A stretch of DNA of 64,000 nt from an uncultured bacterium (GCA_945867195.1 CAMBHR010000003.1:3958-67957), one strand, 5' to 3'. Numbered from the stretch's first letter, positions 34,517-39,760 are shown. The notes: generated by a model not told the origin, from the letters alone. Translations and numbers: made by a program.

Positions 34517-36190
34517 ATGAAACCGCTGATATATCAAATATTCACACGTCTTTACACCAACAAAACCACCAACAATGTGCCTGCAGGCACTTTGGAACAG
34601 AATGGCTGTGCCAAAATGAACGACTTTACTGCGGCACAGTTGAAGCGCATCGCCGATTTCGGCTTCACTCATGTGTGGTTTACAGGACTTATAGAACATG
34701 CCACGCAAACGAACTATGAGGCATACGGCATACAGCCCGACCATCCGGCTGTGGTGAAAGGGCGTGCCGGCTCACCGTATGCCATCAAGGACTACTACGA
34801 TATTGATCCGGACCTGGCTGTGAATGTGCCCGGCAGAATGAAGGAGTTCGAGAACCTGGTGAAGCGCACGCACAAGGCCGGACTGAAAATGGTCATCGAC
34901 TTTGTGCCGAACCACGTGGCACGTCAATACAAAAGCGATGCGTGCCCCAAGGGGGTGAGAGACCTCGGGGCCGACGATGACGTGAACAAGGCATTCGACC
35001 CTAACAACAACTTCTATTATATTGTAGACCAAAACCTCCATACCGGTTTCGACACAGAGCATCGTTCCGGCACACCTTATGAAGAGTTTCCTGCCAAGGT
35101 TACCGGAAATGACCACTTCGACGCGTGGCCTTCGCGAAACGATTGGTACGAAACGGTGAAGCTGAACTATGGGGTCGACTACATCGGTGGCCGTCAGACC
35201 CACTTCTCTCCCATACCTTCCACCTGGCTGAAAATGACAGACATCCTCCTCTTTTGGGCCAAGAAAGGGGTTGATGCCTTCCGTTGCGACATGGCCGAAA
35301 TGGTACCGGCGGAGTTCTGGGCTTATGCCACAGCCAAGGTAAAGGAAAAATATCCCGAAATCCTTTTCATTGCCGAGGTCTATAATCCTTCGGAATACCG
35401 TCACTACATTGCCAGCGGTTTCGACTATTTGTACGATAAGGTAGGGCTTTATGACACCCTTCGCGGCATCGTGGCAGGCGGTTGGTCGGCCAGCTGCATC
35501 ACCGGCTGTTGGCAAGCCATCGACGACATACGTCCGAAGATGCTCAACTTCCTCGAAAACCATGATGAACAACGCATTGCTTCAGCTTTCTTTGCCGGGG
35601 ATGCCCGAAAAGCCTTACCCGCCCTCGTCGTGAGTGCCATGATGGGAACCAGTGCCTTTATGGTCTACGCAGGACAGGAAATCGGCGAGCCCGCCATGGA
35701 GGCCGAAGGGTTCAGCGGCAGTGACGGACGGACCACCATCTTCGACTATTGGTCTGTGGCTTCGTTGCGCAAACTGACGGCCAGAAGGCCAGAGGCGCAG
35801 TTCACGCAGCAGGAAAAGGAACTCTATGATTTCTACAAGCGTGTGGTGCAGTTGTGTCGTTCGGAGCGTGCTTTGTCAGATGGCAGTTTCTATGATTTGC
35901 AGTATGCCAACTATTCCCACACCAATGGGTATAATTGTGACAGGCAGTATGCCTTTATCCGTCAGTCATCAGGAGGTCAGACCTTGTTGGTGGTGGTAAA
36001 TTTCGATGCCGTGAAAATCCACGCCGGGGTTTGCATCCCTCAGCACGCTTTTGATTTCCTGAATCTGCGCAGGGGTTTCCGTGAAGCCCGTTGCTTGCTG
36101 ACCGGCCACAATCAGCCTTTAGATGTGAAGCCCGATGTACCGGTTTATGTGGACGTGCCCGCTTATGGAGCTGTCGTGTTGGAGCTCTGA
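34517..36190 (+). CDS. GH13 alpha-amylase family glycosidase, no signal peptide
   Basis: GSPYA, DFVPNH, FRCDMAE (nucleophile), IAEVY (acid/base), LENHDE. Confidence 0.9.
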   Translation: MKPLIYQIFTRLYTNKTTNNVPAGTLEQNGCAKMNDFTAAQLKRIADFGFTHVWFTGLIEHATQTNYEAYGIQPDHPAVVKGRAGSPYAIKDYYDIDPDLAVNVPGRMKEFENLVKRTHKAGLKMVIDFVPNHVARQYKSDACPKGVRDLGADDDVNKAFDPNNNFYYIVDQNLHTGFDTEHRSGTPYEEFPAKVTGNDHFDAWPSRNDWYETVKLNYGVDYIGGRQTHFSPIPSTWLKMTDILLFWAKKGVDAFRCDMAEMVPAEFWAYATAKVKEKYPEILFIAEVYNPSEYRHYIASGFDYLYDKVGLYDTLRGIVAGGWSASCITGCWQAIDDIRPKMLNFLENHDEQRIASAFFAGDARKALPALVVSAMMGTSAFMVYAGQEIGEPAMEAEGFSGSDGRTTIFDYWSVASLRKLTARRPEAQFTQQEKELYDFYKRVVQLCRSERALSDGSFYDLQYANYSHTNGYNCDRQYAFIRQSSGGQTLLVVVNFDAVKIHAGVCIPQHAFDFLNLRRGFREARCLLTGHNQPLDVKPDVPVYVDVPAYGAVVLEL

Positions 36191-36327: not shown

Positions 36328-36777
36328 ATGAAAGAAACTTCTGCCGAAAAGCATACGGTGGGAACGCCGGTAAAAACGTACCGCCTCCCAGTCAAAAGAT
36401 TTTGCCAAACGCTCGACTTGCGCGATAATCCGGATTTGATAGCCACCTACCGCCGGCTGCACAGCCGGGAAGGCATCTGGCCCGAGATTTTGCAAGGCAT
36501 CCGTGAAGTGGGTATATTAGAAATGGAAATATACCTGCTGGGTACGCGGCTGTTTATGATTGTGGAGATGCCGCAGGAACTGGAGTGGGACGAGGTGATG
36601 TCACGTTTGGCCACATTGCCTAAGCAGGCCGAATGGGAAGCATTGACAGCACAGTACCAGCAGGCAGAGGCAACGGCCACATCGGACGCGAAATGGAAAA
36701 TGATGGAGCGCATTTTCCACCTCTACGAGCATGAAGCCGATAATTCCGAGTACATTTCCGAAGACATTTGTCATTAA
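36328..36777 (+). CDS. L-rhamnose mutarotase family protein
   Basis: RFCQTLDL, YRRLH, IWPEI, EMEIYL motifs. Confidence 0.8.
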   Translation: MKETSAEKHTVGTPVKTYRLPVKRFCQTLDLRDNPDLIATYRRLHSREGIWPEILQGIREVGILEMEIYLLGTRLFMIVEMPQELEWDEVMSRLATLPKQAEWEALTAQYQQAEATATSDAKWKMMERIFHLYEHEADNSEYISEDICH

Positions 36778-37323: not shown

Positions 37324-38994
37324 ATGAAAAAAATATTTTCACTCCTCACCCTTTTCCTCTGCTTCAACGCGGTGTGGGCACAAAAAACGATGTACACGGT
37401 GTTCAACACCAAGACCGGTACGCTGACGTTCAAGTATGATGAAAACAAGCCGAAGAGTACAGCAAGCCAGCTGGTGTATGATGTTCCTACGTCTTTTTAT
37501 TCCGGACCCAAGTGGTATTCCCACAGGTCAAACATTAAGAAAGTTGTAATTGACACATCGTTCGCTGAAGCACGACCAATTACATGCTTTGAGTGGTTCT
37601 ATAATTGTAGTGCATTGACAGAGATCCAAGGTATGGAGAACCTCAATACTTCTGAGGTAACGGATATGATCGAAATGTTCTATGGTTGCTCCAGCCTCAC
37701 TTCTCTTGACCTCTCAAACTTCAATACCGCCAAGTTGCAATATATGTACTCTATGTTCTATGGTTGCTCAGGCCTCACCTCTCTCAATCTGTCAAGTTTC
37801 AATACAAGTAATGTGATATATATGCACGCTATGTTCTCTGATTGCTCAGGCCTCACCTCTCTTGACCTGTCAAACTTCAACACCGCCAAGGTGACGAATA
37901 TGAGTTATATGTTCAATTCTTGTTCAGACCTCGTTACCATATATGCTTCTGACTTGTTCACAACAGAGAGCGTCACTAATTCATCTGGTATGTTTTCCGA
38001 CTGTACCTCTCTTGTAGGAGCCATTTCGTATGACCCCTACAAAGCAGATGCCACCTATGCCAACTACACTACCGGCTATTTCACGTTGAAGGGCAATGTA
38101 ACCACGGAGCATGACTTCACGGGTGAAACCTTATTCAACAACGACAAAAAGATTTACTATAAGGTTTGTCAGGAAGAAGGGTGCCGACAAATAAAATATT
38201 TTGCAGATGCGGCAGGAACTGTCGAAGCTATTCCCAATGAGGATGAAACGGCTTTCAGCGTGGCAACTTACGAATTGCTGGATGCCACAACGTACGACAA
38301 CCAAGCGGTGTTCACCGTGGCTGACTTCACCTACAGCCGCTCGTTTGGCGGGGCAGAATGGACTACGTGGTACGTACCTTTCGACTTGACGCTGACCTCC
38401 GAGCTTTGTGACAAATATGCCTTCTCACGCATCAACAACGTGCATCAGTATGACTTGGACAACAACGGCAGGGCAGAAAAGACCGTGGTGGAGAGCTTCC
38501 GCCAGCAGCCCGGCGTGACGTTGAAGGCCAACTATCCTTACTTGGTGAAGCCGCTCAGCAGTGACTACTGTGACATGGTGCTGCAATTGTCAGATATCAC
38601 TCCCGCACCGGCAGTGACGAACAGCATCGATTGCCAGAGCGTGGACTTCACCTACACCTTCACGGGTACTTACAATGAAATGGGCGAGAGCGGCGCAACG
38701 CTGTACGACCCGTACACGCTGTGGACCAACGGCACATGGCAGCACTTCTACAGCCTGGAATCTATGCGCCACTACCTGACCATCGCACCGCGTCATTCGG
38801 CATCGCCTGCAGCTTCCATCAGCAGCATCGTGCTCTCCGTCATCGGCGAGGAGAACGTGACGGGCATCGTGAACGTCTATGGCGAGGAGCGCAAGGCGAC
38901 GGAGACCTACGACCTGAGCGGCCGCCGTCTGCCGGCAGGAAGTCAGCAAAAGGGACTGGTCATCCGGAACGGAAAAGTGGTTTACAACAAATAA
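37324..38994 (+). CDS. BspA/DUF285-like leucine-rich-repeat surface protein with signal peptide and Prevotella-type T9SS C-terminal domain
   Basis: 26-aa repeats MFxxCSxLTSLDLSNFNTxxV; C-terminus TGI...YDLSGRRL...KGLVIRNGKVV. Confidence 0.85.
   Translation: MKKIFSLLTLFLCFNAVWAQKTMYTVFNTKTGTLTFKYDENKPKSTASQLVYDVPTSFYSGPKWYSHRSNIKKVVIDTSFAEARPITCFEWFYNCSALTEIQGMENLNTSEVTDMIEMFYGCSSLTSLDLSNFNTAKLQYMYSMFYGCSGLTSLNLSSFNTSNVIYMHAMFSDCSGLTSLDLSNFNTAKVTNMSYMFNSCSDLVTIYASDLFTTESVTNSSGMFSDCTSLVGAISYDPYKADATYANYTTGYFTLKGNVTTEHDFTGETLFNNDKKIYYKVCQEEGCRQIKYFADAAGTVEAIPNEDETAFSVATYELLDATTYDNQAVFTVADFTYSRSFGGAEWTTWYVPFDLTLTSELCDKYAFSRINNVHQYDLDNNGRAEKTVVESFRQQPGVTLKANYPYLVKPLSSDYCDMVLQLSDITPAPAVTNSIDCQSVDFTYTFTGTYNEMGESGATLYDPYTLWTNGTWQHFYSLESMRHYLTIAPRHSASPAASISSIVLSVIGEENVTGIVNVYGEERKATETYDLSGRRLPAGSQQKGLVIRNGKVVYNK
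37600..37940 (+). repeat. Intragenic 78-bp coding tandem repeats
   Basis: Units begin at 37678, 37756, 37834 and 37912 (period 78 bp = 26 aa). Confidence 0.85.
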
Positions 38995-39007
38995 ATAATA
39001 GATGATT

Positions 39008-39181
39008 ATGAAGAAACAATATATCAAGCCCGAGATAGCGTCATATGGTGTGCAGCTTGCACAGCTGCTGTGTCTGTCAGGAGTGGACGAAACGGAAGTG
39101 AATTTCGGTGAAGGCTATCCTACCAGAGCCAGAAAGAGTTTTTTTGACAGTATGACAGAAAGCTATCCTGACGAAGAATGA
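39008..39181 (+). CDS. 57-aa acidic peptide with MKKxYxxP...LLCxS N-terminus (not in ORF track)
   Basis: Hand translation MKKQYIKPEIASYGVQLAQLLCLSGVDETEVNFGEGYPTRARKSFFDSMTESYPDEE; starts 13 nt after the bspA stop. Confidence 0.75.
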   Translation: MKKQYIKPEIASYGVQLAQLLCLSGVDETEVNFGEGYPTRARKSFFDSMTESYPDEE

Positions 39182-39223
39182 TGGCTTAACCATCTATCTT
39201 CCCCCGTCCTTCATGGGAACGAC

Positions 39224-39261
39224 AAGGGTCTATGCGCCACGATGGTGGTGTATAGACCCTT
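39224..39261 (+). terminator. Hairpin ending the bspA-peptide unit
   Basis: aagggtctatgcgccac-gatg-gtggtgtatagaccctt, 17-bp stem; weak U tail. Confidence 0.55.
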
Positions 39262-39340
39262 TGCTGTATGGTCAGATTTTCTTGAACTTTACCTGACAAA
39301 ATGAGCATACGGTTTTATTGCTGTCCGCTAATAGTACTTC

Positions 39341-39580
39341 TCTATACGCTTTTTATTCCTCAAAAAAGTATTCACTCTTTCACATGAAGTTTGTTTCTGT
39401 CTGATTCTCAATGGTTTTGGTGTGAAGGCTTACTCGTTCCGCCCTTTACAAGCGTTCACCGTCCGTGTGAATGTTTTGAAATTCAATCCTTCACACTAAA
39501 ACCGTTGAAAATCAGAGGGAAACAAGCTCTGTGTGAAGGTGTGAATGTTTTTTCGGGGGAAAAATTACGTATATATATAC
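39341..39580. repeat. Palindromic intergenic element B (two inverted ~90-bp modules)
   Basis: Arm 1 39341-39428(+), arm 2 39488-39580(-); inner 28-bp ctgattctcaatggttttggtgtgaagg / ccttcacactaaaaccgttgaaaatcag with 3 differences. Confidence 0.75.
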
Positions 39581-39676: not shown

Positions 39677-39760
39677 CACAAGTCCGGGACTTGTCCGCAC
39701 AACTCGGGGAGTAGGAAAAACAAGTCCAGGACTTGTGAAAACAAATCCCGGACTTGGTTA
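39677..39760. repeat. Four 21-bp tandem units with palindromic ACAAGTCC-N-GGACTTGT core
   Basis: Units at 39677, 39698, 39719 and 39740. Confidence 0.85.

What the first reader, a model, noticed from the sequence alone, without database searches (positions are those of the whole stretch)
39008..39261. Unannotated precursor-like peptide co-transcribed with a T9SS surface protein
Seen: a 57-aa ORF 13 nt after the bspA stop and just before a strong hairpin. It has MKKQYIKP, 11 mostly uncharged residues, LLCLS, then an acidic Gly/aromatic region with an internal RARK and a DEE end. Known: YxxP is the RRE-binding leader motif of several RiPP classes; from memory, similar short MKKxYxxP peptides are frequent unannotated ORFs in Prevotella-like genomes. 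Inference: a leader-cleaved exported peptide (possible cut or modification at Cys22-Ser24) acting with the adjacent cargo as an anchor, chaperone or signal. No modifying enzyme is encoded locally, so processing would be in trans. This is my best candidate for an undescribed system.
Basis: partly seen in the sequence, partly recalled or inferred. Interest (0 to 1): 0.8.

Follow-up and report, generated by a model that had tools for sequence, protein, structure and literature searches.

The report
Modified-peptide precursor trailing a surface-protein gene
The 57-codon ORF is a real gene from a very large, unnamed family of small acidic peptides in Prevotella-like gut bacteria; it looks like the precursor of a recently described class of phosphorylated peptides, its likely processing enzymes are encoded elsewhere in the genome, and family members sit directly behind genes for one class of secreted surface protein, which may point to what these peptides do.

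Summary
ORF 39008-39181 (57 aa; alternative ATG at 39002) lies 13 nt after a BspA/DUF285 protein gene and before a strong hairpin.

It is one of 17 paralogs in this genome. The family has at least 1,214 clusters at 50% identity, all 52-69 aa. Consensus: MKKtYIxP-x6-L-xx-E-xx-LA-x-SS...SNkkGWsSdnWseEE.

All 17 copies lie -4 to 127 nt behind genes for signal-peptide proteins that share a roughly 200-aa C-terminal module plus a short T9SS-like tail. Seventeen of the 18 module-bearing proteins have a copy. About 40 other T9SS-tailed proteins have none.

The leader (YxxP, Glu at Y+13, Ser at Y+19/20) resembles LppA precursors of linear polyphosphorylated peptides (LPPs; Popov 2026, reported as restricted to Bacillota). 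The genome has one unlinked operon encoding an HprK-like kinase, an archaeal-type signal-peptidase-like protease and a lasso-type recognition protein (RRE). Relatives add the nucleotidyltransferase, an ABC exporter and a nearby YxxP peptide. Family hits occur only in genomes that carry this operon.

Best reading: an LPP-type precursor processed in trans. The window copy has lost the GWxSxxW end. Processing, export and any role with the neighbouring protein are untested.

The parts
39008..39181 (+). Small ORF, 57 aa plus stop (gene callers in metagenomes use the ATG at 39002, giving 59 aa). Predicted LppA-like precursor peptide and a divergent member of the MKKxYIxP...S family.
39020..39031 (+). 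Y5-I-K-P8, the invariant YxxP motif. Predicted docking site for the RRE.
   Evidence: Y and P are invariant in 147 of 147 family sequences. YxxP is essential for LppB-LppA binding in PMC13381572. The RRE model matches lasso B1 proteins solved with YxxP leaders.
39008..39073 (+). Predicted leader, about residues 1-22. Residues 9-18 occur as two very different alleles in the population (EIA[S/L]YGVQLA versus EMKC[Y/F][E/D]VHPA).
   Evidence: The leader boundary is inferred by analogy with LppA.
39077..39079 (+). Ser24 (TCA), at Y+19. Predicted phosphorylation site and core start region.
   Evidence: Ser at Y+19 or Y+20 in 142 of 147 members. In LppA the phosphorylated Ser3 of the core lies at Y+18 (PMC13381572). 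Modification was not tested.
39122..39178 (+). Atypical C-terminal tail (TRARKSFFDSMTESYPDEE). It replaces the family's GWxSxxW-acidic end and arose by an indel relative to the paralog on contig C103.
   Evidence: DNA alignment; W-W motif nearly invariant; 4 nonsynonymous and no synonymous differences in this tail between the window and ortholog L033.
37324..38994 (+). Upstream gene: 556-aa signal-peptide protein with BspA-type DUF285/PARCEL repeats.
   Evidence: NCBI names close homologs 'BspA family leucine-rich repeat surface protein'.
38293..38907 (+). Shared C-terminal module (about residues 324-528; beta-sandwich in the model). It carries no Pfam or NCBIfam annotation and is the feature whose presence predicts a peptide gene downstream.
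38908..38991 (+). Short T9SS-like tail: YDLSGRRLPAGSQQKGLVIRNGKVVYNK.
   Evidence: Only weak cross-similarity to TIGR04183 (one paralog, 14.4 bits).
39224..39262 (+). Stem-loop ending the two-gene unit; likely terminator. It is conserved in the C103 paralog.

Best explanation
The ORF encodes a ribosomally made precursor peptide of the LPP (linear polyphosphorylated peptide) type. It is co-transcribed with the surface-protein gene in front of it and processed by enzymes encoded elsewhere in the genome.

Proposed steps:
1. The N-terminal leader of about 22 residues (MKKQYIKP...QLL) is bound through its YxxP motif by the single discrete RRE (PqqD-fold protein on contig C80).
2. The RRE presents the peptide to the adjacent HprK-like kinase, which phosphorylates the conserved Ser (Ser24 here).
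3. It also presents the peptide to the adjacent archaeal-type signal-peptidase-like Ser/His/Asp protease, which removes the leader.
4. This leaves an acidic core of about 35 residues.

In this genus the precursor genes have multiplied (17 here). Each has become fixed directly behind a gene for a secreted protein that ends in one particular module of about 200 aa plus a short T9SS-like tail. Peptide and surface protein would therefore be made from one mRNA.

Shown here: the gene, the family, the conserved residues, the adjacency rule, the operon and its conserved catalytic motifs, the RRE fold, and the co-occurrence. Inferred: RRE binding, phosphorylation, cleavage, and any function with the neighbouring protein.

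This particular copy keeps the leader and Ser24 but has lost the family's GWxSxxW end. It may be a variant or a decaying member.
For: - Family: 17 paralogs in the genome. 1,214 clusters at E <= 1e-3, the 150 best listed 52-77 aa and nearly all matched end to end. Y and P are invariant; K3 and two Trp are nearly invariant. Ser at Y+19/20 in 142 of 147, Glu at Y+13 in 124 of 147, median net charge -5, no signal-peptide-like hydrophobic stretch.
- Published LPP leader: YxxPxVLxHQxIxFET|xxS, with Ser3 of the core polyphosphorylated. [quoted passage not shown]
- Own genome, contig C80, three adjacent genes. A kinase with GKSGTGKST (TIGR04352 at E 3.9e-5). A peptidase (TIGR02228 archaeal signal peptidase I at E 2e-4) with GxSM, HR and GD invariant in 14 homologs. 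A PqqD protein (PF05402 at 51.9 bits; weak lasso_PqqD NCBIfam hits).
- RRE model: pLDDT 88.5. Its best PDB matches are lasso B1 proteins solved with their leader peptides (5V1U, 5V1V, 6JX3; TM 0.71-0.77), ahead of PqqD itself.
- The operon sits among housekeeping genes with no precursor beside it.
- The same operon keeps its gene order across many families of the order. In G130 it is followed by NTP_transf_5 (PF14907, 119 bits) and an ABC exporter, and preceded by a 47-aa peptide ...LYLSPDIEVVEIEFEQNILAGSGS.... In G178 a 40-aa peptide MKKLYTSPEIEVVEVIEYGFAASEP... lies 39 nt upstream of the kinase.
- Co-occurrence: family hits in 6 of 15 genomes with a strong kinase match, 0 of 5 with a weak match and 0 of 20 without. 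All 3 peptide-positive genomes of a 251-genome sample of the order are kinase-positive.
- Coding selection: 3-4 synonymous and 0 nonsynonymous changes in residues 19-38.
Against: - No biochemical or expression data.
- 9 of 15 operon-bearing genomes show no detectable family member, so the operon must have other or more divergent substrates there. Within the genus the operon is nearly universal, so co-occurrence there says little.
- The spacing differs from LppA: conserved Glu at -4/-6 rather than -2, and Ser at Y+19/20 rather than Y+18. The residues before the Ser are Leu/Ala rather than Phe-Glu-Thr.
- Similarity of the kinase and the peptidase to named families is weak (22.9 and 21.3 bits, far below cut-offs).
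- No NTP-transferase was found in this genome (the assembly is 91% complete), and no exporter is linked to the operon.
- LPP-type chemistry does not explain why every copy follows a module-bearing gene.
- The window copy lacks the conserved GWxSxxW end, and its tail shows mostly nonsynonymous differences.
Confidence: 0.62

Rival explanations
1. The peptide is an unmodified small cytoplasmic or periplasmic partner protein of the module-bearing surface proteins. It would act as a cargo-specific escort, assembly factor or stoichiometric regulator, in the way PorP/SprF-like proteins serve type B T9SS cargo. On this reading the YxxP resemblance to RiPP leaders is coincidental and the kinase/peptidase/RRE operon serves other substrates.
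For: - Strict adjacency: 17 of 17 copies follow module-bearing genes, and 17 of 18 module genes have a copy.
- Per-genome counts of modules and peptides correlate, Spearman 0.90 over 25 genomes.
- In other species, 77 of 133 listed hits lie behind a listed module hit; this is a lower bound.
- 9 of 15 operon-bearing genomes lack the family.
- There is a precedent for cargo-specific accessory genes encoded next to T9SS cargo (PMC10202324).
Against: - An AlphaFold model of a natural read-through fusion (module + tail + peptide, 45-row alignment) left the peptide below pLDDT 50 with no docking. This is a weak negative.
- The peptide has no signal peptide, whereas its supposed partner is Sec-exported.
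- This reading does not explain the invariant YxxP, the Glu and Ser spacing, or why the family occurs only in genomes with the RRE operon.
- It does not explain why look-alike peptides sit beside that operon in G178 and G130.
Confidence: 0.2
2. The peptide is a precursor of a different class of modified peptide. Its conserved C-terminal GWxSxxW would be the core, cross-linked by an unlinked enzyme (as in streptide, darobactin or dynobactin), with the N-terminus serving only as a leader.
For: The two Trp residues and the Ser between them are nearly invariant across the family. Earlier notes from this scan compared the family with streptide- and darobactin-type cores.
Against: - No radical-SAM or other maturase is linked to any copy in the own genome. 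The flanks of the 17 copies were inspected only through their ORFs.
- The only RRE above the Pfam cut-off in the genome sits in the kinase/peptidase operon.
- The window copy and its many population variants lack the motif yet persist.
- The two ideas are not exclusive: the Trp motif could be a recognition element of an LPP-type core.
Confidence: 0.08
3. This particular copy is a decaying, non-functional member (a pseudogene in the making). It would be kept only because it lies inside the transcription unit of the BspA gene.
For: - It is the weakest of the 16 copies that search recovered against an outside profile (22.4 bits).
- Its 3' end was rearranged and the GWxSxxW motif lost.
- The new tail shows 4 nonsynonymous and no synonymous differences between close orthologs.
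Against: - The frame is open, at the same length, in 38 metagenome clusters at 77-95% identity.
- Residues 19-38 show only synonymous change.
- The leader, YxxP and Ser24 are intact.
- LppA-type precursors are described as having highly variable C-termini (PMC13381572).
Confidence: 0.1

Closest known systems
LppA precursors and the lpp gene cluster of linear polyphosphorylated peptides (Paenibacillus alginolyticus DSM5050; Popov et al., Nat Commun 2026, PMC13381572)
   Same: - Short precursor with a conserved N-terminal YxxP leader, a conserved acidic residue, and a Ser about 18-20 residues after the Tyr; variable C-terminus.
- Same enzyme set: HprK-like kinase, archaeal-type (SipW-like, Ser/His/Asp) signal-peptidase-like leader peptidase and a discrete RRE. 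Relatives also carry NTP_transf_5 and an ABC exporter.
   Different: - Phylum: the paper states that LPPs are restricted to Bacillota. Its supplementary table lists a few Bacteroidales SpI homologs in a separate network cluster, and these were not analysed.
- Here the precursors are not in the cluster. There are up to 17-19 copies per genome, each behind a surface-protein gene.
- The leader is longer and ends in Leu/Ala-x-Ser-Ser rather than Phe-Glu-Thr|x-x-Ser.
- There is a conserved GWxSxxW-acidic C-terminus.
- No NTP-transferase or exporter is linked in this genome.
- Sequence similarity of the kinase and peptidase to named models is weak.
Lasso-peptide precursors and B1 recognition proteins (TbiA/TbiB1, TfuA/TfuB1; paeninodin-type clusters with an HprK-like kinase)
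   Same: YxxP leader motif. The RRE model superposes best on TbiB1 and TfuB1 (TM 0.71-0.77). Weak NCBIfam lasso_PqqD hits.
   Different: No lasso cyclase (C) or B2 cysteine protease was seen next to the operon in the 22 loci inspected. The peptide has no Thr at -2 and no Gly1...Asp/Glu8-9 ring motif.
T9SS type B cargo with a cognate PorP/SprF-like gene encoded alongside (Flavobacterium johnsoniae SprB/SprF; P. gingivalis PG1035)
   Same: A secreted cargo class defined by its C-terminal region, with each cargo gene accompanied by its own small accessory gene.
   Different: The accessory here is a leaderless 57-aa acidic peptide, not an outer-membrane beta-barrel. The cargo tail is neither TIGR04131 nor TIGR04183. 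No functional link has been shown.

Membership tests
LPP-type RiPP precursor (LppA-like) | N-terminal leader carrying the RRE-binding YxxP motif | tested here: met
   Y5-I-K-P8 in the window copy. Y and P are invariant in 147 of 147 family sequences.
LPP-type RiPP precursor (LppA-like) | Full leader consensus YxxPxVLxHQxIxFET followed by xxS (phospho-Ser3 of the core at Y+18) | tested here: inconclusive
   The layout is similar but the consensus is not the same: hydrophobic residues at Y+8 and Y+10, Glu at Y+13 (124 of 147; the window copy has Ala), Ser at Y+19/20 (142 of 147). No FET motif.
LPP-type RiPP precursor (LppA-like) | Genome encodes an SpI-like (archaeal-type Ser/His/Asp) leader peptidase, a discrete RRE and an HprK-like kinase as neighbours | tested here: met
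   Contig C80 positions 639-2317 encode kinase, peptidase and PqqD in a row. GxSM, HR and GD are invariant in 14 homologs. The RRE fold matches lasso B1 proteins. HMM scores for the kinase and peptidase are weak.
LPP-type RiPP precursor (LppA-like) | NTP-transferase (LppN) and MsbA-like exporter (LppD) in the cluster | tested here: not met
   Absent from this genome's operon, and tblastn with five relatives' NTP-transferases found nothing in this genome (the assembly is 91% complete). Both are present in relatives: PF14907 plus an ABC exporter in G130, and PF14907 in G178.
LPP-type RiPP precursor (LppA-like) | Precursor gene lies inside the biosynthetic cluster | tested here: not met
   All 17 copies are unlinked to the operon. 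Look-alike peptides lie beside the operon only in G178 and G130, with a further YxxP...E...SS peptide about 2 kb from the cluster on the opposite strand in G081.
LPP-type RiPP precursor (LppA-like) | Polyphosphorylation of the core Ser and RRE-dependent leader cleavage | not testable with these tools
   Needs mass spectrometry or in vitro reconstitution.
Lasso peptide precursor | Cluster with a lasso cyclase (Asn-synthetase-like C) and a B2 cysteine protease; core with Gly/Ala1 and Asp/Glu at 7-9 | tested here: not met
   No such genes flank the operon in the 22 loci inspected. The core region after Ser24 has no ring-forming pattern.
T9SS type A cargo (for the upstream gene) | C-terminal domain matching TIGR04183/PF18962 | tested here: not met
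   No hit at E <= 1 for the window protein. One of six paralog C-termini gives 14.4 bits. The 23 TIGR04183 matches in the genome (16 over the family cut-off) are other proteins. The tail resembles only the first and last strands of that domain. The SprA/Sov translocon is present.

The most novel reading that the evidence does not exclude
Prevotella-like gut Bacteroidales carry an LPP-type peptide-modification system outside the Bacillota. Its precursor genes have been dispersed and hard-wired, one each, to the 3' ends of genes for a specific class of surface proteins (those with the shared C-terminal module and short T9SS-like tail). The phosphorylated, leaderless acidic peptide would be a dedicated partner of that module, acting for example as a secretion, anchoring or display cofactor made in fixed ratio with its cargo. 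This would give the first functional context for LPPs, whose biological role is unknown, and would define a new cargo subclass of the type IX secretion pathway.
Probability: 0.3. Interest if true: 0.85.

Novelty: new variant of a known kind. Interest (0 to 1): 0.7.

Why it matters
- LPPs were described only in 2026. They were reported as restricted to Bacillota and have no known function.
- This work finds a matching enzyme set in many Bacteroidales families. It also finds a very large unannotated peptide family (at least 1,214 clusters) whose leader fits that set.
- In one abundant gut and rumen lineage, these peptides obey a strict genomic rule: one peptide gene directly behind each gene for a module-bearing secreted surface protein (BspA-like, GLUG-containing and others).
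- That rule ties a modified-peptide pathway to cell-surface protein biogenesis. It suggests simple experiments in cultivable Prevotella.
- It also flags about 10-20 missed genes per genome in current annotation.

Tried and rejected
- Pfam and NCBIfam scans of the peptide, of all 17 paralogs, and of six C-terminal modules gave no family.
- Lipoprotein or signal-peptide reading: Cys is not conserved (41 of 147). The most hydrophobic 15-residue window in the first 30 residues has a median Kyte-Doolittle score of 0.86. Rejected.
- Non-coding RNA reading: Rfam finds nothing over the ORF.
- Docking of the peptide onto its neighbour's module: AlphaFold2 on a natural TAA read-through fusion from the orthologous metagenome locus left the peptide below pLDDT 50. 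Foldseek of that model against the PDB found nothing significant.
- PDB sequence searches with the kinase and the peptidase found nothing useful.
- A DNA pattern for MKKxYxxP across 251 genomes was too noisy to be useful; only the own genome and G158 stood out, apart from G217, whose 10 matches are mostly one repeated sequence.
- dN/dS on orthologs is limited by near-identity; only regional counts could be given.
- The 2023 survey of Bacteroidales RiPP clusters (PMC10352776) does not mention this system.

Full report
**1. The observation**

The window holds an ATG at 39008, with another in frame at 39002, and a TGA stop at 39179-39181. The product is MKKQYIKPEIASYGVQLAQLLCLSGVDETEVNFGEGYPTRARKSFFDSMTESYPDEE.

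The ORF begins 13 nt after the stop of a 556-aa protein (37324-38994). That protein has a signal peptide and BspA-type DUF285/PARCEL repeats. About 40 nt after the ORF there is a strong stem-loop at 39224-39262 (z = -5.2).

One correction: neither TIGR04183 nor PF18962 hits the neighbour's C-terminus, so calling it a T9SS CTD is only an approximation.

**2. It is a real gene in a very large family**

- Fifty metagenome proteins are 77-95% identical to the peptide. They fall into two C-terminal forms...TRA[R/S]KSFFDSVTESYPDE[E/K] and ...DDFEDDSQDNYW.
- A motif scan followed by an HMM search found 17 paralogs in the window's own genome. They are only 16-32% identical to the window copy, apart from one close paralog on contig C103.
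- A profile of these 17, searched against 1.84 billion representative proteins, found 1,214 clusters at E <= 1e-3. All 150 best hits are 52-77 aa, and nearly all are matched end to end.
- In an alignment of 146 of them plus the window copy, Y5 and P8 are invariant, and K3 and two C-terminal Trp residues are nearly so. The consensus is MKKtYIxP-x4-(I/V)-x-L-xx-E-xx-(L/I)(A/L)-x-S-S ... (f)SNkkGWsSdnW(s/t)eEE.
- Median length is 58 aa and median net charge is -5. There is no signal-peptide-like hydrophobic stretch. Ser lies 19 or 20 residues after the Tyr in 142 of 147 sequences. Cys occurs in only 41.
- A profile built without the window copy recovers it at E = 3.5e-4 among 50,382 small frames of the genome. 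It is the weakest of the 16 hits, and there are no false hits.
- Neither Pfam nor NCBIfam has a model for the family.
- In seven orthologous loci from pig-gut metagenomes, the DUF285 gene is always directly upstream.
- Between variants, residues 19-38 differ by 3-4 synonymous and no nonsynonymous changes. Residues 9-18 exist as two strongly diverged alleles. The C-terminal tail shows mainly nonsynonymous differences.

**3. The window copy is atypical**

A DNA alignment with the C103 paralog shows that the 3' end was rearranged by an indel. The family's GWxSxxW-acidic end is replaced by TRARKSFFDSMTESYPDEE. The leader, YxxP and Ser24 are intact.

**4. The adjacency rule**

- All 17 copies lie -4 to 127 nt downstream of long ORFs of 370-2428 aa. 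Those whose N-terminus lies in the assembly show a signal peptide.
- These proteins share a short tail (YDLSGRRV-x6-10-KG(I/L)YIxNGKKxxxK). In front of the tail is a module that no library annotates.
- A profile of the roughly 145 residues before the tail finds exactly 18 proteins in the genome. Seventeen of them have the peptide gene behind them.
- About 18 other proteins with only the short tail have no peptide gene. Neither do the 23 proteins that match TIGR04183.
- The module joins different passenger domains: BspA-type LRR, GLUG, F5/8 type C and others.
- Across 25 genomes of the genus, the per-genome counts of modules and peptides correlate (Spearman 0.90, p = 8e-10). Both are absent from two genomes of the genus and from 16 genomes of other families.
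- In other species, at least 77 of 133 listed peptide hits lie a median of 145 nt behind a listed module hit. Both lists were truncated, so this is a lower bound.
- The genome has the T9SS translocon SprA/Sov.
- The nearest named relatives are MAGs labelled Prevotellamassilia sp., Prevotella sp. and uncultured Prevotellaceae.

**5. The processing machinery in trans**

The only PqqD-family hit above the Pfam cut-off in the genome is on contig C80 (PF05402, 51.9 bits). It is the third gene of a compact operon that sits among housekeeping genes (purH-like, tsaB, murA, rimM, dxr, rseP), with no precursor gene beside it.

- Gene 1 is a P-loop protein with GKSGTGKST. Its best named relatives are HprK-related kinase A and ScmC.
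- Gene 2 resembles archaeal-type signal peptidase I and S24 peptidases. In 14 homologs the motifs GxSM, HR and GD are invariant. This fits a Ser/His/Asp peptidase of the SipW type.
- Gene 3, the PqqD protein, gave an AlphaFold2 model with pLDDT 88.5. Its best PDB matches are the lasso-peptide B1 proteins TbiB1 and TfuB1, both solved with their YxxP leader peptides (TM 0.71-0.77), ahead of PqqD itself.

The same kinase-peptidase-RRE order recurs in about 15 genomes from many families of the order, often followed by a PF14907 nucleotidyltransferase.

- In G130 the set is complete: a 47-aa peptide (...LYLSPDIEVVEIEFEQNILAGSGS...), a fimbrillin-like protein, the kinase, the peptidase, the RRE, NTP_transf_5 and an ABC exporter.
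- In G178 a 40-aa peptide, MKKLYTSPEIEVVEVIEYGFAASEP..., lies 39 nt upstream of the kinase.

**6. What is known**

Popov et al. (Nat Commun 2026, PMC13381572) defined linear polyphosphorylated peptides (LPPs).

- The precursors are 35-200 aa with a conserved YxxPxVLxHQxIxFET|xxS leader and variable C-termini.
- Ser3 of the core is polyphosphorylated, and leader removal needs the RRE.
- The clusters often lie in capsule loci, and the function is unknown.
- The authors state that LPPs are restricted to Bacillota. Their supplementary table does list a few Bacteroidales SpI homologs with RRE neighbours in a separate network cluster, but these were not analysed.
- A 2023 survey of Bacteroidales RiPP clusters does not mention the system.

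**7. The link between peptide family and operon**

In an even sample of 251 genomes of the order, only three have family hits, and all three have strong kinase matches; 16 of the 251 do. With the broader profile, hits occur in 6 of 15 genomes with a strong kinase match, 0 of 5 with a weak match and 0 of 20 without. If the six hits fell at random among the 40 genomes, the probability that all six land in the 15 is about 0.001.

This is suggestive rather than conclusive. The sample is not corrected for phylogeny. Nine operon-bearing genomes lack the family, and within the genus the operon is nearly universal.

**8. Mechanism**

The best-supported reading is that the ORF is an LppA-like precursor processed in trans. 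The RRE would bind YxxP, the kinase would phosphorylate the conserved Ser (Ser24 here), and the SpI-like peptidase would remove a leader of about 22 residues.

All processing steps are inferred.

What the peptide does for the neighbouring protein is unknown. An AlphaFold2 model of a natural in-frame read-through fusion from the orthologous locus L037 was built with a 45-row alignment. It folded the module confidently as a beta-sandwich (pLDDT 70-91 over residues 10-150). The peptide stayed below pLDDT 50 and undocked. Foldseek found no PDB relative of the module.

Because the cargo is Sec-exported and the peptide has no signal peptide, a direct partnership would need an exporter. One is present in G130's cluster, but none is linked here.

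**9. Rivals**

- An unmodified cargo-specific partner protein, with a coincidental YxxP (0.2).
- A different RiPP class centred on the GWxSxxW core (0.08).
- For this copy only, a decaying member (0.1).

**10. Verdict**

I rate it a new variant of a known kind: an LPP-type system in Bacteroidales with dispersed precursors tied to surface-protein genes.

Earlier notes from this scan had already seen the peptide family and its adjacency in other Bacteroidales genomes.

Noticed in passing
window 39390-39526 (and 39677-39760): A hairpin-forming inverted repeat of about 135 nt lies just downstream of the peptide's terminator. It gave spurious miRNA-precursor hits in Rfam, which reflects a long hairpin. 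A second strong hairpin lies at 39720-39756. Other first-stage notes describe these as a dispersed intergenic element with copies at 12.8-13.3 kb and 30.6 kb of the window.
   Followed up: no
G000 contig C5:67450-69550 (+), outside the window: This is the only module-bearing protein of the genome (699 aa) with no peptide gene behind it. Its 506-nt downstream stretch up to the contig end contains repeats of GAACACCCCTTTA-like sequence instead.
   Followed up: partly
window 39032-39061 (peptide residues 9-18): Two sharply different alleles of this 10-residue leader segment (EIA[S/L]YGVQLA and EMKC[Y/F][E/D]VHPA) circulate in pig-gut metagenomes, flanked by nearly identical DNA. This suggests gene conversion between paralogs or diversifying selection on the stretch predicted to pair with the RRE.
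   Followed up: partly
L023 (G130:C81) 559-2773: In this distant relative the YxxP peptide precedes, rather than follows, a 673-aa fimbrillin-like (Mfa-like, weak hit) protein that sits directly upstream of the complete kinase/SpI/RRE/NTP-transferase/ABC cluster. This is another tie between these peptides and surface proteins.
   Followed up: partly
window 36328-36777 and 34517-36190: An L-rhamnose mutarotase (PF05336) and a GH13 alpha-amylase-family gene lie upstream of the BspA-peptide unit. The rhaM-DUF285-peptide order is kept in metagenome locus L039.
   Followed up: no
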